UHGV virus genome: UHGV-1370579
Reading direction: 5' to 3' (one strand)
DNA from: a virus
DNA: 64,000 nt
Below, piece by piece: positions 9,136 to 43,881 of this stretch (positions are counted from its first letter, which is position 1; the number at the start of each line of letters is the position of its first letter). The translations under genes were made by a program, and so were the position numbers. The notes beneath the pieces are model-generated. The model saw nothing but the letters and a program-made list of their open reading frames with translations, was not told the DNA's origin and searched no databases.

Positions 9136-9159
9136 GCAACATGACAGAACAAGATAAAC

Positions 9160-9235
9160 CGACCGTTGGCTGAATGGCTTAGGCGAAGGATTGCAAATCC
9201 TTTTTATGTGAGTTCAAATCTCATGCGGTCGTCCA
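9160..9235 (+). tRNA. tRNA-Cys(GCA)
   Basis: acceptor cgaccgt/gcggtcg, anticodon stem aagga/tcctt with loop ttgcaaa, T-arm gtgag-ttcaaat-ctcat, CCA. Confidence 0.8.
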
Positions 9236-9256
9236 ATTTGCTAAAGGAAAGAAGTA

Positions 9257-9775
9257 GTGCATACAAAAGTTTTTGATAGTTTGGTAAAGAAAGGCGTTGT
9301 TACTAATGAGCCCTTCTATATAACCGCAGAACTAATCCAAAGATTTATGGAAGAATATATAAATCTTTCAGGAACCAATGGTAATACCAAAAAGAATACG
9401 AATACTATGTATTCGAGAAAACTTGCTGCACTTTCCTTTATAAAGTTTAAGCAGGAAAATAAACTTCCTATTTCTGAAGGTTTTGTATACTGTATTAGTA
9501 ACCCTGCATGGAAAAATCAGTATAAAATAGGTATGAGTCAAAATCCAAAAGAGAGATTAGCTCAATATCAGACTTATTCCCCTTATAGGGATTATAAGTT
9601 AGAGCATTGGTCTTTTTGGTTTGACAAACGAAAAGGTGAAAAACTAATTCACCAGTATTTCAAAGATTTAAAAGAACATGAGTGGTTTAGTATAAATTCT
9701 AGGGATCTTAGTAAATATCTAGAACGTATTAACTCTAGTTCTGACTTATATGGTTCCTTAGCTCTAATTGGTTAG
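9257..9775 (+). CDS. T5orf172-domain (GIY-YIG superfamily) protein, putative homing-endonuclease-like
   Basis: GFVYCISNPAWKNQYKIGMSQNPKERLAQYQTYSP...EWF matches the T5orf172/MUG113 motif; GTG start; 3' end overlaps tRNA-Asn. Confidence 0.7.
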   Translation: MHTKVFDSLVKKGVVTNEPFYITAELIQRFMEEYINLSGTNGNTKKNTNTMYSRKLAALSFIKFKQENKLPISEGFVYCISNPAWKNQYKIGMSQNPKERLAQYQTYSPYRDYKLEHWSFWFDKRKGEKLIHQYFKDLKEHEWFSINSRDLSKYLERINSSSDLYGSLALIG

Positions 9776-9829
9776 AGCGGCATCTTGTTAAGTTGAGGGT
9801 TGCTGGTTCGAATCCAGCAGGAACCGCCA
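9752..9829 (+). tRNA. tRNA-Asn(GTT)
   Basis: acceptor ggttcct/aggaacc, D arm gctc..gagc, anticodon loop ttgttaa, T-arm gctgg-ttcgaat-ccagc, CCA; 5' half overlaps the end of CDS 9257-9775. Confidence 0.65.
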
Positions 9830-9931
9830 AATTCTGTGTAGAGTTAAGTAAACCGGTAGCCAACCAGCTATCATTGCTGACATCGAACTCAGCCACAGGT
9901 ACCATTTTCATTAATAACTGAGGAAACAAGC

Positions 9932-10117
9932 ATGTCCAAGAATGTGATTGCGCAACTAGAAGTTCATCGTGATAGCACTATCAACAATATTGAAGTTGAG
10001 AAGAAATACATCGAAGAACTTAAACATGATATACTAGTAAGTCTCAATCGTCTTAATGTACGAAAAGAGTTTCTTAAAGAACTTAATGCAGCTATTGAAA
10101 AACTCAAAGCTGAGTAA
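9932..10117 (+). CDS. small hypothetical coiled-coil protein (61 aa)
   Basis: ORF with gaggaaacaagcATG. Confidence 0.5.
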   Translation: MSKNVIAQLEVHRDSTINNIEVEKKYIEELKHDILVSLNRLNVRKEFLKELNAAIEKLKAE

Positions 10118-10127
10118 ATAAATTATG

Positions 10128-10203
10128 CGACCGGGGCTGGCTTGGTAATGGTACTCCCCTGTCACGGGAGGGAATGTGGGTTCAAATCCCATCGGTCGCG
10201 CCA
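10128..10203 (+). tRNA. tRNA-Asp(GTC)
   Basis: acceptor gcgaccg/cggtcgc, anticodon stem ctccc/gggag with loop ctgtcac, T-arm gtggg-ttcaaat-cccat, CCA. Confidence 0.85.
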
Positions 10204-12809: not shown

Positions 12810-12816
12810 AACAAAT

Positions 12817-12906
12817 GGAAGGTAGGGCGTAGTGGTACGCAACTAGTCTTGAAAACTAGCCCGCTGTAGTGATACGGTGATGGTTCGACTCCATTACCTT
12901 CCTCCA
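12817..12906 (+). tRNA. tRNA-Ser(TGA), type II
   Basis: acceptor ggaaggt/accttcc, anticodon stem ctagt/actag with loop cttgaaa, long variable arm, T-arm gatgg-ttcgact-ccatt, CCA. Confidence 0.75.
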
Positions 12907-12926
12907 ATTAACTATAAGGAATCCTT

Positions 12927-13100
12927 ATGAGCAAAACAGTTACTGTAACAATGAAGGACGGTAAAAAATTTAAAGCATGCCTTCATGAAACAGATAATGG
13001 ATGGGCAGCCTATTTGCCTCACCTAGACTCCACCGGGTATGGAATGACCCAGCGTGAAGCTATTGTTGATGCTTTAAATGAGGCTTCTGCTGGTTTATAA
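12927..13100 (+). CDS. small protein with HicB-like/UPF0150-like fold (58 aa)
   Basis: MSKTVTVTMKDGKKFKACLHETDNGWAAYLPHLDSTGYGMTQREAIVDALNEA resembles HicB-family antitoxin N-domain; SD aaggaatccttATG. Confidence 0.4.
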   Translation: MSKTVTVTMKDGKKFKACLHETDNGWAAYLPHLDSTGYGMTQREAIVDALNEASAGL

Positions 13101-13153
13101 AAATTCTTGGAATATGCCGGAATTGGTAGACGGGACTGCCGAATAGGTTTACT

Positions 13154-13239
13154 AGGAACATCCACTCCTAGAAATATACCTTAAAAGCGGTTGAGATAAA
13201 TGGTCTATCTCGTGAAGGTTCAACTCCTTCTGTTCCTTG
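13154..13239 (+). tRNA. tRNA-like (type II, CCA not encoded); isotype unresolved
   Basis: perfect acceptor aggaaca/tgttcct and T-arm gaagg-ttcaact-ccttc; anticodon arm not confidently folded. Confidence 0.35.
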
Positions 13240-13369
13240 ATATATCAATGGCTCAAAGTGTAACGGTGCTATTTGATGCGCTTGGAAAGACTTTCCCGAC
13301 ATGCGTTCGGGGGTAAGCTTCTGGGGCTAGAATAGAAGAGTTTCTGAGAGCCGCCACAATTGAAAATTC

Positions 13370-13470
13370 GTACTCGTCTTGAGCTGCGTGCAATAGGAGA
13401 TAACTTGATTAGTATTCTAGAACATGCTAATTGAGGATGGTTTCGCTAACCCTGCGAGTTTTCAATTGTG
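13370..13470 (+). other. long-range stem (gccacaattgaaaa / ttttcaattgtggc) enclosing about 70 nt and overlapping the 5' acceptor of tRNA-His
   Basis: 14-bp perfect inverted repeat at about 13372-13385 and 13456-13470. Confidence 0.35.
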
Positions 13471-13544
13471 GCTATATCATAATTGGTTAATGATCCTGAT
13501 TGTGAATCAGGCCTATGTGGATTCGAATTCCACTAGCCACCCCA
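13468..13544 (+). tRNA. tRNA-His(GTG)
   Basis: acceptor gtggcta/tagccac, anticodon stem cctga/tcagg with loop ttgtgaa, T-arm gtgga-ttcgaat-tccac, CCA. Confidence 0.8.
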
Positions 13545-13569
13545 AATTAACTTAAATAGGAAATAAAAT

Positions 13570-13764
13570 ATGGCTGATTTCTGCAAGCAATGCTCCCTTG
13601 ATATGTGGGGCAGAGATACTGGTGACTTATCTGGTCTGATTACAGAAGCCGAAGTCAAAGAAGGTTATGGTGCAGTTGTGGTTTGCGAAGGATGCGGAGT
13701 CATTCGAGTAGATCATGAAGGTAAGCGCCTTGAAGAACCTGAGCCAATTACTCTACTTCCGTAG
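13570..13764 (+). CDS. small zinc-ribbon protein (64 aa; CxxC...CxxC)
   Basis: ORF with aggaaataaaatATG; two Cys pairs. Confidence 0.5.
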   Translation: MADFCKQCSLDMWGRDTGDLSGLITEAEVKEGYGAVVVCEGCGVIRVDHEGKRLEEPEPITLLP

Positions 13765-13777
13765 AGTAAAGAATTAT

Positions 13778-13853
13778 TGGGATGTAGATCAATTGGCAGA
13801 TCGTCGGCCTCTGACTCCGAAGGTTCCACGTTCGATCCGTGGCATCCCAGCCA
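13778..13853 (+). tRNA. tRNA-Gln(CTG)
   Basis: acceptor tgggatg/catccca, anticodon stem tcgg(c)/(t)ccga with loop ctctgac, T-arm ccacg-ttcgatc-cgtgg, CCA. Confidence 0.75.
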
Positions 13854-13859
13854 AATTAT

Positions 13860-13935
13860 TGGAGAGTAGTGTAACGGTTAGCACAACGGCCTTTGACTCC
13901 GTTAATGGTAGGTTCGATTCCTCCTTCTCCAGCCA
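13860..13935 (+). tRNA. tRNA-Gln(TTG)
   Basis: acceptor tggagag/ttctcca, anticodon stem acgg/ccgt with loop ctttgac, T-arm gtagg-ttcgatt-cctcc, CCA. Confidence 0.7.
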
Positions 13936-13942
13936 AATTAAT

Positions 13943-14017
13943 GCGTGATTAGTTCAGTGGCTAGAATAACTGGCTTCCAACCAGTAGACACGAGTTCGAC
14001 TCTCGTATCCCGCACCA
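13943..14017 (+). tRNA. tRNA-Gly(TCC)
   Basis: acceptor gcgtgat/atcccgc (one mismatch), anticodon stem actgg/ccagt with loop cttccaa, T-arm acgag-ttcgact-ctcgt, CCA. Confidence 0.8.
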
Positions 14018-14031
14018 AATAAGGAATCTCT

Positions 14032-14253
14032 ATGCACGTTTTTGAGTTTCGTAATAAAAGTACCGATAAACGAGTTATCATTATTGGGGAAACATACCGA
14101 GCTTATGAACAAACTGACGGCTCTGTTATCTTGAATGATGAGAAAGGAGGTTTTAGCTTTTACCCAGAAGAAACGTATGAAGAGTTTCGTACTAAGTTTC
14201 TTTTACCAGACTGGCTAGCAGTAGCCAAGCAACGAGAATCCGAAGATGGCTGA
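14032..14253 (+). CDS. hypothetical protein (73 aa)
   Basis: ORF with aaggaatctctATG. Confidence 0.5.
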   Translation: MHVFEFRNKSTDKRVIIIGETYRAYEQTDGSVILNDEKGGFSFYPEETYEEFRTKFLLPDWLAVAKQRESEDG

Positions 14254-14410
14254 TAACCTAAAATTAAAGGTTGACAAACAAAAGAAATACGTTGAGATTG
14301 AATTAGGCGAAGAACGTTTAAAGCTAACTTTCGAGTTTCTTCAGCAGTTGGCAATGACAGTAATGTCAGATAAATCCCCTGTATTTGAAAAAGAAATCCC
14401 ATTGAAATAA
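14246..14410 (+). CDS. small hypothetical protein (54 aa)
   Basis: start overlaps previous stop (gATGgctga). Confidence 0.4.
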   Translation: MADNLKLKVDKQKKYVEIELGEERLKLTFEFLQQLAMTVMSDKSPVFEKEIPLK

Positions 14411-14420
14411 TGGGATTATC

Positions 14421-14495
14421 GCTCCTAAAGCATTGCTGGCGATGCAGTTGCCTTGTAAGCATCTGAACCGGGTTCGATTCCTGGTGGGAGCACCA
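14421..14495 (+). tRNA. tRNA-Thr(TGT)
   Basis: acceptor gctccta/tgggagc, D arm gcat..atgc, anticodon loop cttgtaa, T-arm ccggg-ttcgatt-cctgg, CCA. Confidence 0.75.
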
Positions 14496-14509
14496 AATTT
14501 AAAAATTCA

Positions 14510-14562
14510 TTTGCCTTCTCTCTTATTTCTTGTTATAATATTTATATAAATTAATGAGAGGG
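14510..14562 (+). promoter_or_regulatory. T5-type early promoter module
   Basis: tttgcc 14510-14515, tataat 14534-14539, leader ataaattaatgagaggg. Confidence 0.5.
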
Positions 14563-14569
14563 AAACCAA

Positions 14570-14863
14570 ATGAAGCGTTATCTTTCTGTAGTATTCCAAA
14601 CTGGTGGCCAAAGATATACCTATGAATTTCCATCTTCTTGGAAAATCAAAGAAGGTGATCAAGTAGTTGTGTTAACACCGCGTGAAGAGTATAAAGTAGT
14701 AACGGTTAAACAGGTATTTCCAAAAGATCATGAACCAGCTAAAGGCATTCGCTATAAGATGATTCATGGTGTAGTTCGTCAAGTACCACGAACTGAGGTA
14801 GAAATAGATAAGACTGGAGAAGCTAAATTCCATTATACTTCTTACCTAAACGAGATACGATAA
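14570..14863 (+). CDS. hypothetical protein (97 aa)
   Basis: ORF after promoter module. Confidence 0.55.
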   Translation: MKRYLSVVFQTGGQRYTYEFPSSWKIKEGDQVVVLTPREEYKVVTVKQVFPKDHEPAKGIRYKMIHGVVRQVPRTEVEIDKTGEAKFHYTSYLNEIR

Positions 14864-15069
14864 TGAGAATTTCTTTTACAGAAAAGATTATGTGTAGCGG
14901 CGTAATGATCATTACAGCATGGGAGGGTAAACTATGGTGTAATGTATCTGGCCTAAAACCAGAAGATCAAACACCTGAAAACATCCGCAAAATAAAAAGA
15001 AAAATGGTGGAATGTGCCCGACTTCCCGGTGCGCCTAGAAATGGTAAACGTTCTGCAACCAAATATTAA
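14863..15069 (+). CDS. hypothetical protein (68 aa)
   Basis: start overlaps previous stop (taATGa). Confidence 0.45.
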   Translation: MRISFTEKIMCSGVMIITAWEGKLWCNVSGLKPEDQTPENIRKIKRKMVECARLPGAPRNGKRSATKY

Positions 15070-15070
15070 T

Positions 15071-15147
15071 GCTTCGGTAGCTTAGCGATCTAAAGCACTC
15101 GGCTGATAACCGAGAGATCGGGGGTTTAAATCCCTCCCGGAGTACCA
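15071..15147 (+). tRNA. tRNA-Ile(GAT) with non-canonical T-loop (tttaaat)
   Basis: acceptor gcttcgg/ccggagt, anticodon stem ctcgg/ccgag (perfect) with loop ctgataa, T-arm ggggg-tttaaat-ccctc, CCA. Confidence 0.75.
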
Positions 15148-15243
15148 AATTTAGGAATTAAGACTATGCGTCCAGGAAAGTTTAAAAAAGCTAATTGGTC
15201 TAAAGAGTACAAAGAATACTTACTTAGTCTAGTAAAACATAAT

Positions 15244-15318
15244 AGTTAGTTGGCAGAGTGGTTATGCACCTCCTTCATACGGAGCGACTACAGTGGTTCA
15301 AATCCACTACTAACTACC
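15244..15318 (+). tRNA. tRNA-Met/Ile2(CAT)
   Basis: acceptor agttagt/actaact (perfect), anticodon loop ttcatac, T-arm agtgg-ttcaaat-ccact, CCA. Confidence 0.7.
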
Positions 15319-15356
15319 ATTAAAAGAGCTAGAGATAGCTAAATATAGGAGCAATT

Positions 15357-20879: not shown

Positions 20880-21631
20880 TGTCAGTATTAGTAGGTCTGC
20901 ATGGTGAGGCTGGTTCTGGAAAAGACACTGTTGCAAAATTAATTATCGATTGGTGTAATGACACGTATCCAACGTGTTTACCCCGTCGTTACAGTTTTGC
21001 TAAGCCCGTTTATGAACTTGCATCCGTAATCCTCGGTGTAACTCCAGAGTTTCTAGGAGAGCGCAGGGGGAAAGAGATTGACCAATGGTTTACGGTCACA
21101 CAATCTCAATTGGAGCGAGCTAGAGATGTATGGTTTAAATACGGTATCGATAAGTTTGAAGACTTCTCGTACGTTTGGCCAATTTTTGAGGAAAAATATC
21201 TTAATCCTCAACAACTTATCTCAGAGAATAAAGAAGACGGACTTTATAGTTTGTTTATTTCTCCGAGAAAAATGTTACAGCTCGTAGGAACAGAGCTAGG
21301 AAGGCAGCTGGTGCATGAACGCATTTGGCTCATAATTCTGGAGCAATCCATCGCTAAAGACGACCCAGATGTCGCCGTAATAACAGATGTTAGATTCCCC
21401 AATGAAGGAGAGTTACTCAGAGAAACAAACCATTTAGATATGGATTCTTTGATAGTAAATGTAGTACCCGCTGAGCAGAAGTTCACTATTAAATCAGATC
21501 ATCCATCTGAAAGTGGTATTCCTGCAAAATATATCACTCACGAATTAGTTAATAAATTCGATGGTATCAATAACCTTAAACTAGAAGTGTATAACTTCTG
21601 TGACTTAGAGCTAGAACCACTAGTTGGATAA
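20879..21631 (+). CDS. P-loop kinase, putative deoxynucleoside monophosphate kinase
   Basis: N-terminal GLHGEAGSGKDT Walker A similar to phage dNMP kinases; about 250 aa. Confidence 0.5.
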   Translation: MSVLVGLHGEAGSGKDTVAKLIIDWCNDTYPTCLPRRYSFAKPVYELASVILGVTPEFLGERRGKEIDQWFTVTQSQLERARDVWFKYGIDKFEDFSYVWPIFEEKYLNPQQLISENKEDGLYSLFISPRKMLQLVGTELGRQLVHERIWLIILEQSIAKDDPDVAVITDVRFPNEGELLRETNHLDMDSLIVNVVPAEQKFTIKSDHPSESGIPAKYITHELVNKFDGINNLKLEVYNFCDLELEPLVG

Positions 21632-30716: not shown

Positions 30717-30901
30717 TGGAAACTCTTTTTCTTTTAATGCTTGTAGGTTCCCTGCTAGTTATACTAGCACTTCTACTAATCTGTAATATTCTTAATAATA
30801 AGAATTTAGAGTTAAAGTGTGAAAACCAAATTCTTAATCGTGAACTTAAACAATATAATCTAGCAGCGAATAAGCTGTTAGACAAACTGGAGAATAAATA
30901 A
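30716..30901 (+). CDS. hypothetical membrane protein (61 aa)
   Basis: N-terminal TM segment. Confidence 0.4.
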   Translation: METLFLLMLVGSLLVILALLLICNILNNKNLELKCENQILNRELKQYNLAANKLLDKLENK

Positions 30902-31455
30902 TGACTTTATATGCACAACAATCTATTCAAGTAGTACCAGATCATGAACTGAATACGTGGGATTATAGCTTTAAAGATTTAACTGCCACTGTACAATTCA
31001 AATCTATGAAGCTAACCTTTGCACACACTAGTATTAAAGCATGTAAAGATTTTGAAGGTAGGCTCAACAACGCTCGTAAGATTTTTGGCAAGGCTCGCAT
31101 TCCAGCTGACAACCTTATTAATGCATTAATAGATGCTGGTTATAAACTCGTGAAGACTGAGGTTAACCGTCCTAGTACTCCTGTGACTATTCGAGATCCG
31201 TGGCAGTCAGGGCCAATTACAATGTGGAACAGTCCTAAAATAACGTCGGATTTGCACAATGTTCCATGTGGTGGCGTTATAGAAAATAATTCCTCATATC
31301 GAGTTGGTGAAGATTATGGGCCTTCTGTACAGTTGAAACATACTCAAGAAGCTTTTGAATCTGATATGAAAAGCGTAGCACCGGGGGACTCTGGAGTTTT
31401 TAATAAGTCTGTTTATACTATTCCTATGAACAATCCTGTAAGAGTGGAAGTCTAG
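30901..31455 (+). CDS. hypothetical protein (184 aa)
   Basis: tiled ORF. Confidence 0.5.
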   Translation: MTLYAQQSIQVVPDHELNTWDYSFKDLTATVQFKSMKLTFAHTSIKACKDFEGRLNNARKIFGKARIPADNLINALIDAGYKLVKTEVNRPSTPVTIRDPWQSGPITMWNSPKITSDLHNVPCGGVIENNSSYRVGEDYGPSVQLKHTQEAFESDMKSVAPGDSGVFNKSVYTIPMNNPVRVEV

Positions 31456-31590
31456 AAGATGCAATTATGGAAGCATTGGGAGATGCTCTTAATGAGAGTA
31501 AAAAGGATTAATAATTCCTAATACACGAGCCTCTACGGAGGCTCTAAAATAAAAAGAGGGTCATCCAGACCTTAAAAATGGGAGATAATA

Positions 31591-32484
31591 ATGTATAACT
31601 TTAAAGATAAACTAAGACAAAATGCTGGCAAAGGAAAGGCAAAGGAGAATAATAGTGTTCCTAATGCTAAAGTACTTCCGTTTCCTGAACTATCTCAAGA
31701 AGAAAAAGATAAGTTAGCATTTATGTTTGATGCCCTTCTAGGGCTAAATGGACGTTTATATTCCTCACTCAATATTAATGAGAAACGTCTAGTAGAGATG
31801 TTCTGTAAGCGTTATCAAGTTACTTCAAAGGGCAATTCCTACAAAGAAGGTGAAAAAGCATTCACAGTCTTAAAAATCAGTGCATATGCACATCGTTTCT
31901 TAGTTTATGGATTACAGATGGAATACTTCACCATTCCACCCTTTAAGTCATTTCACATTTTTGAAGATGAACGAATGAATATTGATGATCTCTATGGAGA
32001 TACGTACAAATATTCAGGAAGCCCATTCCACGATGCATTAAGGAGCTATCCAACTAACTATTTACCAGTTAGAGCATCTCAAGGTAAAGCTAGCATCTTT
32101 GCTGTATACTCAGGATCTAAAGCATCTGATCTAGAAACTTATATATTTAAAGAGCGTAAATCTGTACTTCCAGATGAAGCATTATATAATAATCCATTGC
32201 TTCCAGAAAAAGAACCAGAGAAAATTGATGTAACCCCACCAACCCCACCAATCCCATCTGATTCTCCGTACCTGAAGTTTGAAAACCATGTTGGATGGGT
32301 TCTAGAAATGGGTGTAGCTTCACCGCTTGCTGCAGCATTCATCAATAGGTATCTAGAAATTCCTGACGAGTTCCACACACGTTATAATACGAATATTCAG
32401 ATTACAGATGAATTAATAGCCATTGCAAAAGGTACACCTACTGACACTGAGGCGTACCAAAAAGCATACCAAGAGTTACTGTAA
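31591..32484 (+). CDS. hypothetical protein (297 aa), last gene of the AT-rich early block
   Basis: ORF with gggagataataATG; followed by hairpin 32495-32523. Confidence 0.55.
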   Translation: MYNFKDKLRQNAGKGKAKENNSVPNAKVLPFPELSQEEKDKLAFMFDALLGLNGRLYSSLNINEKRLVEMFCKRYQVTSKGNSYKEGEKAFTVLKISAYAHRFLVYGLQMEYFTIPPFKSFHIFEDERMNIDDLYGDTYKYSGSPFHDALRSYPTNYLPVRASQGKASIFAVYSGSKASDLETYIFKERKSVLPDEALYNNPLLPEKEPEKIDVTPPTPPIPSDSPYLKFENHVGWVLEMGVASPLAAAFINRYLEIPDEFHTRYNTNIQITDELIAIAKGTPTDTEAYQKAYQELL

Positions 32485-32916
32485 GATCCTGCATGTCTCG
32501 GTGCACAATACCTGTACCGAGACTCAAATACAAACTCTCGTTGACAGATAGCTAAATGTATGTTATCATAACTCTATGAGTTAATAGAATTAACCATTTA
32601 GAGTTGCCACACAGAAGGTGTGGTGGTTCAGTAATTTAAAATTACTAACTTGTAGCGGAGGATACGGAGCGACAGGACAAGTTAATAAGTAATTTAATAT
32701 AAATTGCTAGAAACATCACGAGACCTTCTGGCGGGGGCAAAGCTCTATATGAGAACCCTGGGGGATCTTATATTTAAAATAAAAGTAAAACTTTTGACCA
32801 CATAATTTACATTCAAGATGATACACCTGTTGCCGCTCATCTGCTAGGATGGCACAACACTTTCTTCTAGACTCCTAAGTTTCTATGAAAACTCTAGTCA
32901 ACTCAGGCGGTTTTCA

Positions 32917-32977
32917 TATTCCTAGAAACTCTAGCAATAGGCGGTTAATATAGGGCGGTTATAGGGAGGGCGGTTAT
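32917..32977 (+). repeat. 4 direct copies of GGCGGTT(A/T)
   Basis: copies at about 32917, 32940, 32955 and 32969. Confidence 0.7.
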
Positions 32978-33019
32978 TTCTAGGAGACATTTTTTGAAAA
33001 CACATTTCCAGAAATTACT

Positions 33020-33620
33020 GTCGGATTTGCACACTGACAGGAGTTTAAAAACTGGTCGGATTTGCACAAACGCCTAAGTTTTTAGGAACTCTTCCTCTCC
33101 TGAAAATAGCAGCATTATTTCGGGCCGAAGGCCCGTGATTGCCTGAGTTTTTAGAGCCACAAGAATTTTCACTTGTCAAGCTATTTTGCCCCATTTTGCT
33201 AATAAAATTTTACTTTTTCTGCACCTATCTCAAATTTCCCCAAATTATCTCAACTCTTCCCCAAAATCCCCGCAAATCAGGTGCTCCGCACCAATCCTGC
33301 GCCCACATCCTTCTAACCCCAAAATTTCTCTCGCTCTCTCATCTTCTCCTCAAACCTATACAATCACACACCCTCCAATCGAAGTCACAAAAATCTTGTC
33401 GGATTCGCACAAATAAACCCATGTCGGATTTGCACATATTCTAGCTAATTCCACAGGATTGATGCGCAGCATCGGATTGCTGGAGTTTTTAGGAAAATTC
33501 GTTGTCGGATTTGCACACTATAAAAATTTTTCGGGTCGGATTTGCACACTACCAAAAATTGTCGGATTCGCACATACATGCCCACGCGTAACCCATGGGG
33601 GCAAATGTCGGATTTGCACA
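33020..33620 (+). repeat. 8 direct copies of 14-mer GTCGGATT(T/C)GCACA (candidate iterons/protein-binding array)
   Basis: copies at about 33020, 33055, 33398, 33423, 33504, 33535, 33561 and 33607, all same orientation, irregular spacing. Confidence 0.8.
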
Positions 33621-33639
33621 AAAGCGCAGGGCAATTGCC

Positions 33640-33845
33640 CTGCTCGCCTGAATGCGAATGATAATGAGAATCAATCTCATTTAAAAAGTGAAATGCGAAT
33701 GATAATGATTTGCATTTAAGAAAGGGAATGAGAACTATTCAAGAAGTGAAATGAAAATTATTCAGGAAGTGAAACGATTCTCATTTAGAAAGTGGAACGC
33801 AAATGATAATGATTCGCATTTAAGAAGGGAAGTGAGAAACACTGT
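33640..33845 (+). repeat. AT-rich iteron block (AAGTGAAA x5; aatgcgaatgataatga x2 and variants)
   Basis: repeated gaagtgaaatg / gaatgcgaatgataatga units. Confidence 0.65.
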
Positions 33846-33846
33846 T

Positions 33847-33962
33847 ATTTAAGTTATCCACAGACTTATTAACAGCACGATTTGACTTGACAGAATCCTA
33901 GCCATTTTGAAGCGTTATCCACAGACTTATCCCCAGGTTATTCTACTGTATAAATATACAGT
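33847..33962 (+). repeat. left terminal inverted repeat of 4-kb cassette: 23-bp tip with DnaA box (TTATCCACA), second DnaA-box 17-mer, and near-palindrome actgtataaatatacagt
   Basis: the perfect 23-mer at 33847-33869 is the reverse complement of the 23-mer at 37851-37873; a 17-bp direct repeat of the DnaA-box motif recurs at 33914-33930; palindrome at 33945-33962. Confidence 0.8.
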
Positions 33963-34104
33963 ATTCCTATGTAGTGAATAATTCTAATATACGCCTAAAA
34001 CGTCCTGAATCGCATTCTAACGCGTTTAATTTTGGCGGGGATACTAAAACAAATGGGTATTTATCTGGGGGCGTGAAAAACGGGGATCTGCTCCCCGCTT
34101 GTTG

Positions 34105-34299
34105 TCAGTCCGGTAATTGATGCGTGATCTTCTCCTCCTCCCCGTAGGAATCGACCAAATGCTGATAATAACCATCGTGATCATAAATAACGCTATCATA
34201 TTCGCCCCGCTCGACCGCTTGCCGGTTTTCCGGCGTATCGGGCACGTAAAAAACATCAACCATCGTAGTAGTTTTGGTCACAACAATTTTATTGCTCAT
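34105..34299 (-). CDS. hypothetical acidic protein (64 aa)
   Basis: minus-strand ORF; internal ATG with aggag SD chosen as start. Confidence 0.45.
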   Translation of the reverse strand: MSNKIVVTKTTTMVDVFYVPDTPENRQAVERGEYDSVIYDHDGYYQHLVDSYGEEEKITHQLPD

Positions 34300-34529
34300 A
34301 ATAACTCCTAGTAAATATATTTTTGCCAATAGCGGCGAACGTTATCGCCACCAGCGGAATCATTTGTAGCCTCAACATTACCAACGAAAATATATAGTTT
34401 CATAGTGCCATCGCTCCTAGAATGAGAATGATTATTATTACCATTACAAGCCCGTTACTAAATCGTAAACGCTGGGAAACATTCCCAGCGGTATTATTAG
34501 ATTTATGGGATTGCGTTTTACGCCACCAG

Positions 34530-34730
34530 CTATTCACGGTAGACACGCCAGCCGTCTAGCTTCCATTCTTCCCCCTTGCGAATATTGAAAAACCAATCAT
34601 TAAAATTGTAACCATCTTCTGACATGATCACGCCGTTTTCTTTCATGTACAAAAATTCATCGCTAGTAAAATATTGATTACTAACTTTAAAACCTTGTTT
34701 CATTTTTTCTAGTGCTTCATCTTTAGTCAT
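34530..34730 (-). CDS. hypothetical protein (66 aa)
   Basis: minus-strand ORF, overlaps start of downstream gene by 4 nt. Confidence 0.45.
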   Translation of the reverse strand: MTKDEALEKMKQGFKVSNQYFTSDEFLYMKENGVIMSEDGYNFNDWFFNIRKGEEWKLDGWRVYRE

Positions 34731-35071
34731 TGCGCCACCTTTCGAAACGCTGTTTCAATACTTTCAGCGGTTGATTGAATATACGCGCCTTTCATGATCA
34801 GGCGCTCAGTGCATACCTTGCGGAAAATATTAATAAAATCATCTTCATTTTCTGCAATTAATGCCTCACCCATGACCTGAATATCACACGATGCAAAGGT
34901 CAAAAATTGAAACGCTAGTTCACGGGCAACGACCGCATTAATTTTATAATGCGCCTTGCCTTCATAGATATTAATTACGCCTATATAAACTGGTGAAAGC
35001 TGGTTTAAATAGTTTGCTAATAATGCCGGTCGGCAAATAGCAACAAAACGATTGCCCTCATAAATTACCAT
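34727..35071 (-). CDS. hypothetical protein (114 aa)
   Basis: minus-strand ORF in GC-richer cassette. Confidence 0.5.
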   Translation of the reverse strand: MVIYEGNRFVAICRPALLANYLNQLSPVYIGVINIYEGKAHYKINAVVARELAFQFLTFASCDIQVMGEALIAENEDDFINIFRKVCTERLIMKGAYIQSTAESIETAFRKVAQ

Positions 35072-36504: not shown

Positions 36505-37509
36505 TTACTCGCTTTCGGTGCTAGTGGTAAAAGTAGAAATATCAATACCTTTCACCATTTCATCAATCATTTCAGCGATATTAAAACTTTGTACCATTTC
36601 TAACATAGCCGCTTCCATAGCTGCACCTGCCACCGCTTTCGCCTTTTGGTTACTTGGGGCGTACTGGTCAACCGCTACGCTCAGCAGGTTGGCAATCACT
36701 ACTCGACCGATGGGTGTATCAATATAACCTTTAATCATAAACGGTGCTTTTTTAGCCGCTACTTTCGTAATTTGAGTCAGTGCAATTTTACCCGCTTCCA
36801 GTTTTGCAGCGTTTACAACAGCGGATTTATTAGCGGCAACAATATTAGCGATCTTGGTCATGGTGTTTTTTCCTTTATTTTCAGTAGTTTGCGCATTTGC
36901 GCTTGAAGTTTGAGATGGTACAGCCTGTTTTGCTACGTTGTCAACTGGTTTTAGTGTAAATCCAGCATTTGCAACATTTGTTTCACCCCCATACTCTAAA
37001 TAATCGTTAGGGATCAACATGTTACCCGTTGACTTTTCAAAACACAATACGCCAGTTGTTTCGATTGCGTTACTATCAGCACCTTTATAACTGGATGATA
37101 ATTCACGCCAGATACTATTTAATAACGATCCGACACTATCCAATCTGATATTATTTACTTTTGTTGCTGTTACCTGCTCTTTTTCTTGCACGTTATATAA
37201 TCGCGCAATGTAACCACTATGAGACTCACTATAACCAACAATGATAAAATCAATATCAGTCCCCCGACTATTACGGAAAATGTGATAATCACGGTTGAAA
37301 ATTACTAGCGCCCCTGTCTGGTCTAGTAATAGCGTGAAATCATCAACTGAATAATGAGTATCATTATTGTCTAAAATTTCATCGTGAATCTTTTCAATAA
37401 TAGTAGCAGTATGTTGTACACTTGCCGCACTACTACCATCTAGCAGGTTACGCAAACTACCTTTAACAATAGTGGCGTTTGCTGGTACTGCAATTCTTAC
37501 AGTAGACAT
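36505..37509 (-). CDS. hypothetical protein (334 aa), first gene of minus-strand cassette operon
   Basis: minus-strand ORF with SD gagggagacaaagaaATG; Ala/Lys-rich low-complexity C-terminal half. Confidence 0.55.
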   Translation of the reverse strand: MSTVRIAVPANATIVKGSLRNLLDGSSAASVQHTATIIEKIHDEILDNNDTHYSVDDFTLLLDQTGALVIFNRDYHIFRNSRGTDIDFIIVGYSESHSGYIARLYNVQEKEQVTATKVNNIRLDSVGSLLNSIWRELSSSYKGADSNAIETTGVLCFEKSTGNMLIPNDYLEYGGETNVANAGFTLKPVDNVAKQAVPSQTSSANAQTTENKGKNTMTKIANIVAANKSAVVNAAKLEAGKIALTQITKVAAKKAPFMIKGYIDTPIGRVVIANLLSVAVDQYAPSNQKAKAVAGAAMEAAMLEMVQSFNIAEMIDEMVKGIDISTFTTSTESE

Positions 37510-37723: not shown

Positions 37724-37761
37724 AATTTGATTGCGGTTGTTACTGCTACCCTTCTACCCTG

Positions 37762-37873
37762 TATATTTATACAGTAGGATAACCTGTATATAAGTCTGTG
37801 TAAAAGTCGCCAAAACGTCGCCTATTGCGTCAAGTTATTTTACAAAATGTATAAGTCTGTGGATAACTTAAAT
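37762..37873 (+). repeat. right terminal inverted repeat of 4-kb cassette (palindrome ctgtatatttatacag; degenerate and perfect DnaA-box 23-mer)
   Basis: the 23-mer at 37851-37873 is the reverse complement of 33847-33869; the palindrome at 37763-37778 is the reverse complement of the left copy. Confidence 0.8.
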
Positions 37874-38056
37874 GATAGTGGTTCTCACTAACTAATTTAT
37901 ACAGTTATTATATAACAAAATATAGTTAGTTGGCTAATAGGATTTTAAAGTGATTATGAGTCTGCTAATTAAACCTGAAAAACTCATTAGCTAGCCTGCT
38001 ATTAATTTTGTTATAATATAATAGAGATTAAACTAATAACATAAGGAAACAATTAA

Positions 38057-39862: not shown

Positions 39863-40270
39863 ATGACTAACGCAAAAACCGCAAAATTCGCATGGAATGA
39901 AGAAAACACTCAGAAAGCTGTTACCATGTACCAGCAGTTAATCAACGAAAACGGTTTAGATTTTGCAAATAGCGACGGCCTGAAAGAGATTGCAAAAGCA
40001 GTAGGCGCGGCCTCCCCCGTATCCGTTCGCTCAAAATTGACCAGTGCAAAAGCCTATCAGAAAAGCGATAAGCCGCGTAAAGTTGGCGGCGGCAGTTCCA
40101 TTCGTAAAGCGCATTATGTGCGTGTTATTGCAAAACATGCGATCGATTCCGGCATTATCAAAGACGCCGATGATCTGGCAAGTCTGGAAAGTGCAAAATT
40201 GGAAACGCTGGACGCCGTGGCGCAACTGTTAGGCGTTGCCGATGAAGTAAAACAAGCCGCAGGTGAATAA
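39863..40270 (+). CDS. A2: A2-like pre-early protein (135 aa)
   Basis: 135 aa equals the recalled size of T5 A2; lies immediately upstream of the A1-like 556-aa gene; conserved pre-early upstream motif aatcccttaaat..ggagtttt. Confidence 0.5.
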   Translation: MTNAKTAKFAWNEENTQKAVTMYQQLINENGLDFANSDGLKEIAKAVGAASPVSVRSKLTSAKAYQKSDKPRKVGGGSSIRKAHYVRVIAKHAIDSGIIKDADDLASLESAKLETLDAVAQLLGVADEVKQAAGE

Positions 40271-40647: not shown

Positions 40648-42318
40648 ATGATTATTTCCGCAGAAAAACAAACCGTTATCCTGAAAATGGCCGCTGACTT
40701 TAACTTCTACGGTAAACGCCTGCGCGCCACTAAATTGGAAGTTTGTGACGATATTTCGAAAGCGGTATACGATACTACTAAACACTCCACCGCCATTTGT
40801 GATTGGTTGGAAGCAAATAAACCAGCGAAACCAAAAGCGGCAAAAGTAGCAAAAGCCATTAAAAATGATGAGCGCCCAGAAGCGGCTGGGATTGTTTCTA
40901 GTACGGTGGAGCAATGGGAAGTAAAACAAGGTAAACGCTTTATTATTACATCGATTCAGAATAATACTTTCCCGCATAAAAACTTTTTAGCCTCACTGGA
41001 GCAATTTGCTAAATATATCGGTGCTGATTTGCTTGTTTCTAAGTATATTTATAATAAAAACGGTTTTCAAAATGGGGAAGGTGCGGATGGAATCAAATAT
41101 GATTCCGCGTTCGATAAATATATTTGCAGCAAAAACGTGTTTTTAAATAACCGCCGCTTTGCTTTCATGGCTGAAATTAATGTTTTGCCAACCGCAGATT
41201 ATCCGCTTTCTGGATTCGCCGAGACTGCAACGGCTTTAAATATTGAGGGGCTGGCAATTGGTCACGCTAAAATTACCGCTGAAAGCGTGCCAGCTTTAAA
41301 AGGTGAAGTAGTGCGCCGTATGTATTCAACCGGAACGGCAACGTTAAAAAACTACATTCAGCAGAAAGCAGGACAAAAGGCCGAGGCGCTGCATAACTTC
41401 GGTGCGCTGATTGTCGAGTTCGACGAGGACGGGGAATTTTTTGTTCGCCAGCTTGAAACAATGGACGAAAGCGGGGTGTTTTATGATCTGAACGTTTGCG
41501 CTACTCCTGCCGGATGCTATGAGACATCGGGGCATGTTTTAGGCTTGCAGTATGGCGATATTCACGCCGAAAAATTAGATGAGGAGTGCGCCGCCGCATC
41601 TTGGGGGCATGGTGATACTTATGGGCTAGTAGATATTCTTAAACCAAAATATCAGTTTGTGCATGACGTTCACGATTTTACATCCCGCAATCATCATAAC
41701 CGCGCATCCGGTGTATTCCTAGCTAAACAATACGCCGCCGGACGTGATAAAGTTCTGGATGATCTTATCGATACGGGGCGCGTGCTAGAATCAATGGAAC
41801 GTGATTTTAGTCAAACAATCATTGTTGAATCTAATCACGATTTGGCGCTATCCCGTTGGCTTGATGATCGTAATGCTAACATCAAAGACGATCCAGCAAA
41901 CGCCGAGTTATATCACCGCCTGAATGCCGCTATTTACGGAGCTATTGCAGAAAAAGACGATACTTTCAACGTGCTAGATTATGCGCTGCGCAAGGTTGCA
42001 GGCTGTGAATTTAACGCCATTTTCCTGACCACTGACCAATCTTTCAAGATTGCAGGCATCGAGTGCGGCGTACACGGTCACAACGGCATTAACGGGAGCC
42101 GTGGCAATCCGAAACAGTTTAAGAAATTGGGCAAATTAAACACCGGACACACCCACACCGCCAGCATTTACGGCGGCGTTTATACCGCTGGCGTATCGGG
42201 GAGCCTCGATATGGGTTACAATGTTGGCGCGTCAAGCTGGACGCAAACGCATGTTATTACCTATGCAAACGGTCAGCGTACTTTGATCGACTTTAAGAAC
42301 GGTAAATTCTTTGCGTAA
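40648..42318 (+). CDS. A1: A1-like pre-early protein with metallophosphatase motifs (556 aa)
   Basis: 556 aa equals the recalled size of T5 A1; GDIHAE, GHGDTYG, GVHGHNGINGSRGN and GHTHT phosphoesterase-like motifs in the C-terminal half. Confidence 0.6.
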   Translation: MIISAEKQTVILKMAADFNFYGKRLRATKLEVCDDISKAVYDTTKHSTAICDWLEANKPAKPKAAKVAKAIKNDERPEAAGIVSSTVEQWEVKQGKRFIITSIQNNTFPHKNFLASLEQFAKYIGADLLVSKYIYNKNGFQNGEGADGIKYDSAFDKYICSKNVFLNNRRFAFMAEINVLPTADYPLSGFAETATALNIEGLAIGHAKITAESVPALKGEVVRRMYSTGTATLKNYIQQKAGQKAEALHNFGALIVEFDEDGEFFVRQLETMDESGVFYDLNVCATPAGCYETSGHVLGLQYGDIHAEKLDEECAAASWGHGDTYGLVDILKPKYQFVHDVHDFTSRNHHNRASGVFLAKQYAAGRDKVLDDLIDTGRVLESMERDFSQTIIVESNHDLALSRWLDDRNANIKDDPANAELYHRLNAAIYGAIAEKDDTFNVLDYALRKVAGCEFNAIFLTTDQSFKIAGIECGVHGHNGINGSRGNPKQFKKLGKLNTGHTHTASIYGGVYTAGVSGSLDMGYNVGASSWTQTHVITYANGQRTLIDFKNGKFFA

Positions 42319-43146: not shown

Positions 43147-43881
43147 ATGAATAAATCTATTACTAATTCTTTCCGTACTTTCCCGCATATTTCCCGCGTC
43201 ATGATTTGGGATCTGGACGGCACTATCATTAATTCTTTCCATCGTGTAGCGCCTTGCTTTGATAGTGAGGGCAATTTAGATTTAAATAAGTATAAGAATG
43301 AAGCGTGTAAACATCATTTAATAATGCAGGATTCATTATTACCATTAGTTGAATATATGCGCCAGTGCATGAATGATGTTAATACGTTAAACATTATCTG
43401 CACCGCTCGACTGATGAGCAAGTCGGATTATTATTACCTACGCAAGCAAGGACTGCGAGGGCGTGGGGATAGCAATATCCGCGTATTTTCCCGCGATACA
43501 CTACACAAATATTTTGAAGCTGATAAAGTTAGCGAAATATACCACAGTAAGGACGCAGTTTATAAATCTTATTATTTTGAATTATTTAAACAGTTATATC
43601 CGAACGCTGATTTTACAATGATTGACGATCATAAAGGCGTGCTATCAGCGGCTGCGTCATACGGATTTAAAACGCTGGACGCGCAAGCTATTAACGATAT
43701 TCTATCAATCGGTGTCACATTGATAGGTGAAACCTTTATTGATGAGTCGCTCGATGATGATAATGATTATCAATTCCTAGCCGACCGCCTGCAATTATGT
43801 TGGGAAAGTATGACCGAAGAAGAACGCGCAGAATATAGTTGCAGCCCGCAACAATATATTGAGAAATTAAAAGTTGCCTAA
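43147..43881 (+). CDS. dmp: HAD-family 5'-deoxyribonucleotidase (Dmp-like, 244 aa)
   Basis: MIWDLDGTIINSF HAD motif I; 244 aa equals the recalled size of T5 Dmp; position at the outer end of the pre-early block. Confidence 0.65.
   Translation: MNKSITNSFRTFPHISRVMIWDLDGTIINSFHRVAPCFDSEGNLDLNKYKNEACKHHLIMQDSLLPLVEYMRQCMNDVNTLNIICTARLMSKSDYYYLRKQGLRGRGDSNIRVFSRDTLHKYFEADKVSEIYHSKDAVYKSYYFELFKQLYPNADFTMIDDHKGVLSAAASYGFKTLDAQAINDILSIGVTLIGETFIDESLDDDNDYQFLADRLQLCWESMTEEERAEYSCSPQQYIEKLKVA

What the first reader, a model, noticed from the sequence alone, without database searches (positions are those of the whole stretch)
32860..33845. About 1-kb non-coding repeat landscape with at least three iteron families next to DnaA boxes: candidate injection-stop signal or replication origin
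Four GGCGGTT(A/T) units are followed by eight same-orientation copies of the 14-mer GTCGGATT(T/C)GCACA at irregular spacing. An AT-rich block of AAGTGAAA / aatgcgaatgataatga iterons follows, and a GC hairpin gggccgaaggccc sits at about 33121. The array ends in two TTATCCACA DnaA boxes. No credible ORF exists; the six-frame ORFs here are repeat artefacts. The array lies at the inner end of the pre-early block, where T5 has its first-step-transfer stop region. It could equally be an origin with initiator-binding iterons.
Basis: seen in the sequence. Interest (0 to 1): 0.7.

Follow-up and report, generated by a model that had tools for sequence, protein, structure and literature searches.

The report
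Phage T5 injection-stop region, already known
This non-coding repeat field is the counterpart, in a close relative of phage T5, of T5's long-known "injection stop signal" region at the inner end of the terminal repeat, so it is an ordinary known feature whose mechanism is still unsolved.

Summary
All motif families are present, on one strand, and far above chance. The window is a T5-like phage (Tequintavirus) read in reverse orientation with its two terminal repeats collapsed into one.

Region 32860-33845 is 93.7% identical to the stretch that T5 GenBank records annotate as "injection stop signal (iss)". Davison calls the same stretch Repeat Region 3. The replication-origin alternative is not supported.

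The element extends beyond the given coordinates. It runs from about 32906 to a terminator at 34081-34097. It contains:
- the inner end of the terminal repeat, which is the physical right end of the genome (33153|33154), at the foot of a conserved hairpin;
- the T5 7.9% nick site (33623|33624);
- the two DnaA-box pairs.

It is more conserved than the flanking genes. Its order of parts persists as far as Vibrio phages. No ORF in it behaves as coding.

One thing I did not find in the searchable literature is a 19/20 match to the LexA operator consensus beside the DnaA boxes. It occurs in both inverted copies of the module and is conserved family-wide.

Novelty: already known. How the stop works remains untested.

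The parts
31245..31258 (+). Outlying ninth exact copy of the 14-mer (T5 'direct repeat D copy 10'), inside the early ORF 30901..31455
   Evidence: A copy sits in the corresponding upstream gene in T5, phiR2-01 and Slocum.
32495..32523 (+). Hairpin just after the stop codon of the last early gene (31591..32484, homolog of T5.018). It is a likely terminator of the converging early transcription.
   Evidence: Inverted repeat I20; ORF map; T5 annotation.
32541..32569 (+). Strong sigma-70-like promoter, TTGACA-17-TATCAT with TG, 11 of 12 matches. It points into the repeat field. The roughly 300 nt downstream fold well.
   Evidence: Fold of 32576-32900 gives z = -3.8. About 98-99% identical to T5 and mar004NP2 but largely absent from Epseptimavirus.
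32906..32976 (+). Four GGCGGTT(A/T) units, the last three 14-15 nt apart. They lie on the unique-DNA side, outside the terminal repeat.
   Evidence: One to four copies at the same place in all enterobacterial lineages examined.
33020..33068 (+). Outer pair of 14-mers GTCGGATTTGCACA (T5 DRD copies 8 and 7), outside the terminal repeat. The window lacks 46 bp that hold T5 copy 9.
33100..33154 (.). Imperfect hairpin of about 55 nt: A-tract, GC stem GGGCC/GGCCC at 33122-33134, then T-tract. Its 3' foot coincides with the terminal-repeat boundary.
   Evidence: The equivalent hairpin exists with different stem sequences in Klebsiella phages (CACGGTG/CACCGTG) and in Slocum (CGGC/GCCG). This is the most conserved 100 nt of the region, 0.95.
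33153..33154 (.). Inner end of the long terminal repeat, which is the physical right end of the virion DNA. The repeat lies to the right, 33154 to about 44002.
   Evidence: Mapped by alignment to T5 10139. The position is the same within 2 nt in phiR2-01 and Slocum, just 5' of (GA)GCCACA...CTTGTCAAG, and 21 nt earlier in IME260. The left end of the repeat was mapped. This is an inference from homology and was not measured for this phage.
33200..33395 (+). C-rich, G-poor tract (72 C against 11 G) with the T5 'direct repeat A' units TATCTCAAATTTCCCCAAA
   Evidence: C-runs are present at the same place in IME260, Slocum and Vibrio phage Chester.
33398..33620 (+). Inner array of six co-oriented 14-mers GTCGGATTYGCACA (T5 DRD copies 6 to 1), with start-to-start spacing of 25, 81, 31, 26 and 46 nt
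   Evidence: The core TCGG(A/T)TTYGCACA is invariant in five enterobacterial lineages. Vibrio phage Chester has a variant, TMGRATTTGCACC, in eight copies.
33622..33643 (+). Site of the T5 major single-strand nick at 7.9% (AAA|GCGCAGG, nick at 33623|33624) together with palindrome J, GCAGGGCAATTGCCCTGC
   Evidence: T5 annotations. The motif RRGCGCAGG occurs on the + strand only at 4610, 21059 and 33622, close to where the T5 32.6%, 18.5% and 7.9% nicks are predicted. GCGCAGG follows the last 14-mer in most lineages examined, including Chester.
33651..33842 (.). AT-rich block (31% GC) of T5 direct repeats C/E and palindromes E-I. The nominal T5 shear point of first-step-transfer DNA (9618) maps to about 33676.
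   Evidence: The shear point is taken from 10.1101/866236 and was mapped through alignment A1.
33831..33963 (+). Protein-box module, the equivalent of T5 IRC'-spacer-IRD' plus palindrome D. It holds DnaA pair 1 (TTATCCACA-GAC-TTATTAACA, 33854-33874), a spacer with CTTGAC, DnaA pair 2 (TTATCCACA-GAC-TTATCCCCA, 33915-33935), and a LexA-operator-like palindrome TACTGTATAAATATACAGTA (33944-33963).
   Evidence: A 55-nt piece (33912-33966: DnaA pair 2 plus the LexA-like palindrome) matches 549 phage records, usually twice per genome copy.
34081..34097 (-). Rho-independent terminator hairpin CGGGGATCTGCTCCCCG, flanked by an A-run and a T-run. It marks the end of the rightward pre-early operon.
   Evidence: T5 annotates a terminator here.
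37757..37889 (-). Inverted second copy of the DnaA/LexA-like module (T5 Repeat Region 2, IRC-spacer-IRD), about 250 nt upstream of the DUF7566 pre-early gene (36505..37509, homolog of T5.011)

Best explanation
The region is the orthologue of the bacteriophage T5 injection-stop-signal region (Davison's Repeat Region 3). It is a non-coding, cis-acting field of about 1.2 kb that straddles the junction between the long terminal repeat and the unique DNA. The pre-early and early transcription units converge on it.

How it most likely works. These steps are inferred, not shown.
1. Virion DNA enters the cell left end first.
2. The last part of the first-step DNA to enter is the module of two DnaA-box pairs plus a LexA-like operator.
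3. That module, and its inverted twin 3.8 kb upstream, are captured by sequence-specific host proteins. In Davison's model the protein is membrane-associated DnaA.
4. Transfer halts at about 8% of the genome. The AT-rich block and the nick then sit at the envelope, and the co-oriented 14-mer array is still outside the cell.
5. The pre-early proteins A1 and A2 restart transfer. The 14-mer array is probably the site on which a conserved phage protein acts, with the DNA-binding protein A2 as the obvious candidate.

The same field also holds the physical right end of the genome, at the foot of a conserved hairpin.
For: Identity of the region
- It is 93.7% identical over 99% of 1.6 kb to the T5 stretch annotated as iss, left terminal repeat and major nick.
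- It matches repeat for repeat with the AY587007 annotation.
- dmp, A1 (99% identical to a Tequintavirus A1) and A2 lie in the same repeat.

Selective constraint
- The non-coding stretch 32800-34050 is 0.75-0.95 identical to six relatives. The flanking genes score 0.45-0.65.
- No coding signature is present.

Conserved order of parts
- The order is 14-mer array, C-rich tract, GCGCAGG nick motif, repeat block, DnaA pairs plus LexA-like palindrome, then the pre-early genes.
- This order holds in Tequintavirus, Epseptimavirus, Sugarlandvirus, Slocum and Hongcheonvirus. Not every part was located in every one of these lineages.
- It also holds in Vibrio phage Chester, where A1 is only 33% identical.

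Host-type boxes
- Four of the five consensus DnaA boxes in 64 kb lie in the two inverted modules.
- The only two LexA-consensus matches in the window lie there as well, where 0.01 are expected.

A2
- A2 is comparatively well conserved: 42% identity between this phage and Chester.

Literature
- Transfer stops at about 7.9% of the genome, and A1 and A2 are needed for the second step. The iss is assigned to this repeat field (10.1101/866236; 10.64898/2026.04.02.716235).
Against: - The T5 iss is defined by map position only. No deletion, binding or host-mutant experiment has tied any of these repeats to the stop (PMC10644984; PMC13250531).
- T5 ejects its whole genome into FhuA proteoliposomes in vitro (cited in 10.1101/866236). 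The DNA sequence alone therefore does not stop transfer.
- The assignment of A2 to the 14-mers is a guess.
- The 14-mer resembles a DnaA box (ATTTGCACA, 8 of 9), which blurs the division between host-bound and phage-bound sites. The Vibrio variant, ATTTGCACC, moves away from the DnaA consensus.
- From memory and not verified here: classical work reported that T5 grows in dnaA(ts) hosts. If that is right, it weakens an essential role for DnaA.
Confidence: 0.8

Rival explanations
1. Genome-end processing or packaging signal. The 14-mer arrays, the hairpin and the conserved sequence at 33100-33200 would mainly serve terminase, or the machinery that duplicates the terminal repeat. They would mark where the right end of the genome is cut and where packaging starts. 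This need not exclude the stop-signal role.
For: - The physical right end of T5, phiR2-01 and Slocum maps to the same spot within 2 nt. It lies at the foot of a hairpin whose stem sequence differs by lineage while the structure persists.
- This is the most conserved 100 nt of the field.
- In enterobacterial lineages the 14-mers flank the cut on both sides.
- From established knowledge, not tested here: T5 injects left end first, so the right end should be packaged first.
Against: - In Vibrio phage Chester the record's 8006-bp repeat starts after the whole 14-mer array. The array keeps its place relative to the pre-early genes but not relative to the genome end.
- No 14-mer lies near the left end of the repeat.
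- The left ends of four phages share no clear motif with the right ends.
- I found no paper on a T5 packaging site.
Confidence: 0.3
2. Transcriptional boundary and operator region only. On this reading the field holds convergent terminators, a C-rich Rho-loading tract, and a duplicated promoter/operator module regulated by DnaA and LexA. It would insulate pre-early from early transcription and would play no direct part in halting DNA transfer.
For: - Hairpin terminators lie on both sides, at 32495-32523 and 34081-34097. Palindrome J with a T-run looks like a terminator on the - strand.
- The tract 33200-33395 has 72 C against 11 G.
- The inverted copy of the module sits about 250 nt upstream of the rightward pre-early operon. 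A promoter-like site there (TTTACA-17-TATCCT) ends at the LexA-like box.
- Weak promoter-like sites also occur in the copy at 33869-33896.
Against: - Promoter matches in the modules are weak, 9 of 12. Counts for the whole region are not far above the shuffles: 9 against 6.0 and 8 against 3.9.
- This reading does not explain eight co-oriented 14-mers.
- It does not explain why the measured end of first-step DNA falls here (10.1101/866236).
Confidence: 0.15
3. Replication origin. DnaA boxes beside an AT-rich block and iterons would form an oriC-like or plasmid-like origin, as the first reader proposed as an alternative.
For: - Consensus DnaA boxes occur in pairs next to a block with 31% GC and repeated 14-mers.
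- Cumulative GC skew changes direction near 32000-33000.
Against: - The skew change coincides with the switch of gene strand at a convergent junction.
- No replication-initiator gene is adjacent.
- Iteron spacing is irregular and differs between lineages.
- Davison cites electron-microscopy studies that place T5 origins near the genome centre. He also notes that replication genes are not expressed during the first step (10.1101/866236).
Confidence: 0.05

Closest known systems
Bacteriophage T5 injection stop signal region. Sequenced by Heusterspreute et al. (1987, Gene 52:155). Annotated in GenBank AY543070 (misc_feature 9140..10149) and AY587007 (repeats A-D, palindromes C-J). Davison's 'Repeat Region 3'.
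   Same: - Orthologous sequence: 93.7% identity.
- Same position at the inner end of the terminal repeat.
- Same repeat families in the same order.
- Same nick site and the same DnaA-box pairs with 61-nt spacing.
- Same inverted partner upstream.
   Different: - A 46-bp deletion removes T5 repeat D copy 9, so the window has eight copies in the field instead of nine.
- There is a fourth exact GGCGGTT unit where T5 has GGCAGTT.
- Both main DnaA boxes are consensus TTATCCACA, where T5 has one TTATCAACA.
Chromosomal DnaA-box clusters of E. coli (oriC and the DnaA-titrating locus datA)
   Same: Clustered consensus 9-mers TTATCCACA, in pairs, close to AT-rich DNA.
   Different: - No unwinding element of 13-mers was identified.
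- No homologous sequence was found in 5,426 complete E. coli genomes.
- The cluster occurs twice, as inverted copies 3.8 kb apart, inside phage pre-early DNA.
LexA operators (SOS boxes, consensus TACTG(TA)5CAGTA) of gamma-proteobacteria
   Same: 19 of 20 positions match at 33944-33963 and 17 of 20 at 37757-37776. CTG...CAG is kept in every lineage examined.
   Different: - It sits in a virulent phage next to DnaA boxes, not demonstrably over a promoter.
- LexA binding is untested.
- The palindrome could equally be the site of a phage protein.
Terminase recognition fields at phage genome ends (lambda cos with its repeated R sites; the T7 concatemer junction)
   Same: Repeated short sites at irregular spacing flank a fixed genome-end cut, and a hairpin lies at the cut.
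   Different: - No terminase binding is known.
- The array is not tied to the genome end in the Vibrio lineage.
- Nothing comparable was found at the left end.
Iteron-type plasmid or phage origins
   Same: Several same-orientation copies of a 14-mer close to DnaA boxes.
   Different: - The spacing is irregular: 25 to 343 nt.
- There is no adjacent initiator gene.
- Published origin mapping places T5 origins elsewhere.

Membership tests
T5-type injection stop signal region (Repeat Region 3) | Lies at the inner end of the long terminal repeat, downstream of the rightward pre-early operon. dmp, A1 and A2 are in the same repeat. | tested here: met
   The boundary maps to 33153|33154 and the repeat runs from 33154 to about 44002. 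A1 is 40648..42318, A2 is 39863..40270 and dmp is 43147..43881.
T5-type injection stop signal region (Repeat Region 3) | About 1-1.2 kb without genes, holding direct repeats D, C/E, B and A, inverted repeats C' and D', and palindromes, in the T5 order | tested here: met
   Alignment to the annotated T5 sequence; repeat families; no coding signature.
T5-type injection stop signal region (Repeat Region 3) | DnaA boxes in pairs 3 bp apart in IRC' and IRD', with an inverted partner (IRC-spacer-IRD) several kb upstream | tested here: met
   Pairs at 33854-33874 and 33915-33935. The partner is at 37757-37889, with arms 92% and 77% complementary.
T5-type injection stop signal region (Repeat Region 3) | Major single-strand nick (7.9%) at GCGC next to repeat D copy 1 | tested here: met
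   The motif AAGCGCAGG is at 33622-33630. The same motif lies near the positions predicted for the other two nicks. The presence of the sequence was tested. The nick itself was not.
T5-type injection stop signal region (Repeat Region 3) | DNA transfer actually pauses here until A1 and A2 are made | not testable with these tools
   Needs infection experiments. Even in T5 this rests on shear mapping, not on mutation of the site.
Replication origin (oriC-like or iteron type) | DnaA-box cluster beside an AT-rich unwinding region | tested here: inconclusive
   Boxes and a 31% GC block are present. No 13-mer unwinding repeats were recognised.
Replication origin (oriC-like or iteron type) | Regularly spaced iterons with an adjacent initiator gene | tested here: not met
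   Spacing is 35, 343, 25, 81, 31, 26 and 46 nt and differs by lineage. Of the two flanking genes scanned against Pfam, one matched only DUF7566 and the other matched nothing.
Replication origin (oriC-like or iteron type) | Initiation mapped at the locus | not testable with these tools
   The literature cited by Davison places T5 origins near the genome centre.
LexA operator (SOS box) | Palindrome CTGT-N8-ACAG close to TACTG(TA)5CAGTA | tested here: met
   19 of 20 at 33944-33963 and 17 of 20 at 37757-37776. These are the only two matches in 64 kb, where 0.01 are expected. Conserved in all 11 relatives examined.
LexA operator (SOS box) | Overlaps a promoter and is bound by LexA | tested here: inconclusive
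   Only weak promoter-like matches adjoin it. Binding cannot be tested here.
Genome-end (terminase) recognition site | The physical genome end lies in the region at a conserved sequence | tested here: met
   Annotated ends of T5, phiR2-01 and Slocum coincide within 2 nt, and IME260 is 21 nt away. For this phage the end is inferred from homology only.
Genome-end (terminase) recognition site | The repeats are bound by the small terminase subunit and are needed for cutting | not testable with these tools
   No data. In Chester the array is not linked to the end.

The most novel reading that the evidence does not exclude
The stop module may not be a DnaA site alone. It may be a composite host-protein trap. 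In both inverted copies, each set of DnaA-box pairs is joined to a near-consensus LexA operator. This pairing is kept from Escherichia to Vibrio phages, although the phage proteins have diverged to about 33-42% identity.

On this reading LexA, together with DnaA, clamps or loops the last-entering first-step DNA, or gates the rightward pre-early operon. That would couple T5-type two-step entry to the host SOS state.

The separate co-oriented 14-mer array has a conserved core, ATTTGCAC. It would be the polar track on which A2/A1 restart transfer.

I found no mention of a LexA site in the papers I could search. The 1987, 2005 and 2015 papers are not held, so earlier notice cannot be excluded.
Probability: 0.15. 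Interest if true: 0.6.

Novelty: already known. Interest (0 to 1): 0.25.

Why it matters
Two-step DNA entry of T5 has been a textbook puzzle since the 1960s. The DNA stops after 8%, and nobody knows why it stops or how A1 and A2 restart it.

This window adds no new kind of element. The comparison does sharpen what to test:
- which parts are invariant across the phage family (the DnaA pairs, the LexA-like palindrome, the 14-mer core, the nick motif);
- which parts vary by lineage (the AT-rich block, and the position of the repeat end);
- the fact that the same field holds the physical end of the genome.

For genome annotation, it shows that the small 'hypothetical proteins' some records call in this stretch are not genes.

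Tried and rejected
- Rfam search of 31500-35000 at a permissive threshold: only one chance-level hit.
- Consensus folding of the boundary hairpin across lineages: MAFFT could not align the divergent stems, so no usable covariation count was obtained. The support comes from single-sequence folds instead.
- Fur-box reading of the AT-rich block. A 16/19 match lies at 33660-33678, and there are six matches in the window where 0.05 are expected. However, one cluster lies in the dmp coding sequence (a run of GAT codons), relatives match only at 4 mismatches, and Slocum and Chester have none. I kept this as a weak lead only.
- The 14-mers as plain DnaA boxes. They match 8 of 9 positions, and some copies are consensus TTTTGCACA. 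But five more conserved bases flank the 9-mer, and the Vibrio variant departs from the consensus.
- A shared cut-site motif at the left and right genome ends: none is convincing.
- Coding potential of the ORFs in the region: rejected.
- Test of whether the LexA-box type follows the host, using an alpha-proteobacterial phage with an A1 gene. The Rhizobium phage I fetched is T7-like, with A1 among replication genes and no comparable region, so the test was not applicable.
- Search for the module in E. coli genomes: no match.
- Davison's 2015 review could not be read.
Full report
**What the window is.** The window carries 25 tRNA genes at 2935-15319. It also carries dmp, A1 and A2. It matches T5-like phages throughout. 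[quoted passage not shown] The two long terminal repeats are collapsed into one copy, which I place at 33154 to about 44002.

Four GGCGGTT(A/T) units lie at 32906-32976. Eight exact, same-strand copies of GTCGGATTYGCACA lie at 33020-33620, and a ninth is at 31245. Only 0.39 are expected even when two mismatches are allowed. The block 33651-33842 has 31% GC and is built of nested repeats and palindromes. The GC hairpin is at 33122-33134. The two TTATCCACA boxes are at 33854 and 33915, just past the stated end. Consensus DnaA boxes are rarer in the window than chance predicts: 5 against 8.1 expected. Four of the five sit in two 131-nt inverted modules, at 33831-33963 and 37757-37889.

ORFs in the field carry stops in relatives. 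The one that stays open, 33045..33194(-), changes evenly at all three codon positions, so it is conserved as DNA and not as protein.

**What it is.** A megablast of 32500-34100 hits T5 at 93.7% identity over 99% of the query. The features annotated under the match are 'left terminal repeat', 'injection stop signal (iss)', 'terminator' and 'major DNA single-chain interruption'. The Hangzhou T5 record annotates the same stretch with direct repeats A-D, inverted repeats C' and D', and palindromes C-J, and the window matches it repeat for repeat.

The differences from T5 are small:
- a 46-bp deletion that removes repeat D copy 9;
- a fourth exact GGCGGTT unit;
- a second consensus DnaA box where T5 has TTATCAACA.

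Davison's preprint describes this field as Repeat Region 3. He compares it across 25 phages and proposes that membrane-bound DnaA captures the DnaA boxes to stop entry (10.1101/866236). Papers from 2023 and 2026 state that the role of these sites has not been tested and that the second step remains poorly understood.

**Anatomy, from the early-gene side to the pre-early side.**
- Terminator hairpin of the last early gene, 32495-32523.
- A strong promoter-like site at 32541-32569 that points into the field.
- The GGCGGTT units.
- Two outer 14-mers.
- An imperfect hairpin at 33100-33154 whose foot is the repeat boundary, 33153|33154.
- A tract with 72 C against 11 G, 33200-33395.
- Six inner 14-mers.
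- The nick motif AAA|GCGCAGG with palindrome J.
- The AT-rich block, into which the nominal T5 shear point (9618) maps at about 33676.
- The module of two DnaA pairs plus a palindrome.
- The pre-early terminator at 34081-34097.

The motif RRGCGCAGG occurs on the + strand only at 4610, 21059 and 33622. Those positions are close to where the T5 32.6%, 18.5% and 7.9% nicks are predicted to fall. This supports the nick assignment and shows that the 14-mers are not the nick determinant.

**Conservation.** Against six Markadamsvirinae, the field scores 0.75-0.95 identity per 50 nt. The flanking genes score 0.45-0.65. The peaks are at the hairpin and boundary (0.95) and at the DnaA module (0.88-0.94).

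The 14-mer core TCGG(A/T)TTYGCACA is unchanged, and always on the same strand as the DnaA boxes, in Tequintavirus, Epseptimavirus, Klebsiella Sugarlandvirus, Serratia phage Slocum and Pectobacterium Hongcheonvirus.

Vibrio phage Chester has an A1 only 33% identical and an A2 42% identical. It still keeps the order:
- eight TMGRATTTGCACC units;
- a C-rich tract;
- GGCGCAGG after the last unit;
- a lineage-specific 8-nt tandem array;
- TTATCCACA boxes and CTGTATATTTATACAG;
- an inverted second module with four DnaA boxes.

A 55-nt piece of the module (DnaA pair 2 plus the LexA-like palindrome, 33912-33966) is found in 549 phage records, typically twice per genome copy.

**The genome end.** Annotated repeat ends of T5, phiR2-01 and Slocum fall within 2 nt of one another. 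They lie just before (GA)GCCACA...CTTGTCAAG, at the base of a hairpin. The GC stem of that hairpin differs by lineage: GGGCC/GGCCC, CACGGTG/CACCGTG and CGGC/GCCG. The field therefore also contains the physical right end of the virion DNA, which suggests a role in end formation. In Chester, however, the repeat starts after the whole 14-mer array. The array thus keeps its place relative to the pre-early genes, not relative to the end. I read this as favouring a role in DNA entry for the array and a separate end-processing role for the hairpin and boundary sequence.

**A point I did not find in the literature.** T5 'palindrome D' is TACTGTATAAATATACAGTA here. That matches 19 of 20 positions of the LexA operator consensus. 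A 17/20 copy lies in the inverted module. These are the only two matches in 64 kb, where 0.01 are expected. The palindrome follows the second DnaA pair in every lineage examined, including the Vibrio phage.

Davison's preprint does not mention LexA, and two full-text searches found no paper linking LexA with T5-like phages. The 1987, 2005 and 2015 papers are not held, so prior notice cannot be ruled out. Whether LexA binds is untested.

**Mechanism.** Several things are shown here: the orthology, the conserved anatomy, the host-type consensus boxes in two inverted copies, and the lack of coding potential. From the literature come the pause at about 8% and the need for A1 and A2.

The following is inferred:
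- Host sequence-specific proteins hold the last-entering module, and perhaps loop it to its twin.
- The AT-rich block and the nick lie at the envelope during the pause.
- The co-oriented 14-mers are acted on by a conserved phage protein, with A2 as the candidate, to resume entry.

My estimates are about 0.5 that a host protein bound at the module is the clamp, about 0.35 that the protein is DnaA, and about 0.15 that LexA takes part.

**Rivals.** There are three: an end-processing or packaging signal, a purely transcriptional boundary, and a replication origin. The origin reading is the weakest. The spacing is irregular and lineage-specific, no initiator gene is adjacent, the skew change is explained by convergent genes, and published mapping places origins elsewhere.

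**Verdict.** The feature is already known, so interest is low to moderate. It is ordinary for a T5-like genome, and it sits on an old open question for which the comparison gives concrete fragments to test.

Noticed in passing
window 33944-33963 and 37757-37776: A near-consensus LexA operator (19/20 and 17/20 to TACTG(TA)5CAGTA) sits next to the DnaA-box pairs in both inverted modules. It is conserved from Escherichia to Vibrio phages. It was not mentioned in any paper I could search.
   Followed up: yes
window 32541-32900: A strong promoter-like site (TTGACA-17-TATCAT with TG, 11/12) lies right after the early-gene terminator and points into the repeat field. The next 325 nt fold unusually well (z = -3.8). 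They are about 98-99% identical to T5 and mar004NP2 but mostly missing from Epseptimavirus. No Rfam family matches. This could be a lineage-specific non-coding RNA.
   Followed up: partly
window 4610-4618, 21059-21067, 33622-33630: The motif RRGCGCAGG occurs on the + strand at only these three places, close to the positions predicted for the T5 major nicks at 32.6%, 18.5% and 7.9%. Each is preceded by CGTAAY 36-37 nt upstream, which suggests a two-part nick-site signal.
   Followed up: partly
window 33100-33154; L004 about 2450-2510; L007 about 2121-2186 (- strand): A hairpin of about 55 nt ends exactly at the terminal-repeat boundary. Its GC stem has a different sequence in T5-like, Klebsiella and Serratia phages, while the A-tract/T-tract frame is kept.
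   Followed up: partly
window 33663-33717; L018 640-780: A 55-nt piece of the AT-rich block (AGAATCAATCTCATT...AATGCGAATGATAATGATTTGCATT) recurs at 85-87% identity in a non-coding, repeat-rich region of unrelated 150-kb coliphages (Phapecoctavirus Mt1B1_P17 and three other ~150-kb phage records). This hints at a shared host-factor site.
   Followed up: partly
window 33660-33678, 34424-34442; L008 3190-3208: Fur-box-like sequences: 16/19 in the AT-rich block, and a second site among the pre-early genes that reaches 17/19 in Epseptimavirus relatives. The shuffle statistics overstate the significance, because one cluster (43753-43777) is a GAT codon run inside dmp.
   Followed up: partly
window 33200-33395: An extreme strand asymmetry, 72 C against 11 G, with CCCCAAA-type units just inside the repeat end. 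C-runs recur at this place in Klebsiella, Serratia and Vibrio phages. It could be a Rho-loading tract on + strand RNA, or G-runs on the other strand near the genome end.
   Followed up: no
window 31245-31258: A ninth exact 14-mer lies inside the early ORF 30901..31455, about 1.8 kb from the array. T5, phiR2-01 and Slocum each have a copy in the corresponding upstream gene.
   Followed up: partly
window 33045-33194 (- strand): A 49-codon ORF spans the repeat boundary and stays open in six relatives. Several records annotate it as a hypothetical protein. Substitutions are spread evenly over the three codon positions, so it is probably not a gene.
   Followed up: yes
L020 3014-3173 (Vibrio phage Chester): Where T5-like phages have the AT-rich palindrome block, this Vibrio phage has about 13-14 tandem 8-nt units (TCTAGACT / TCTATCCA). 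The start of its 8006-bp terminal repeat falls inside that array.
   Followed up: no
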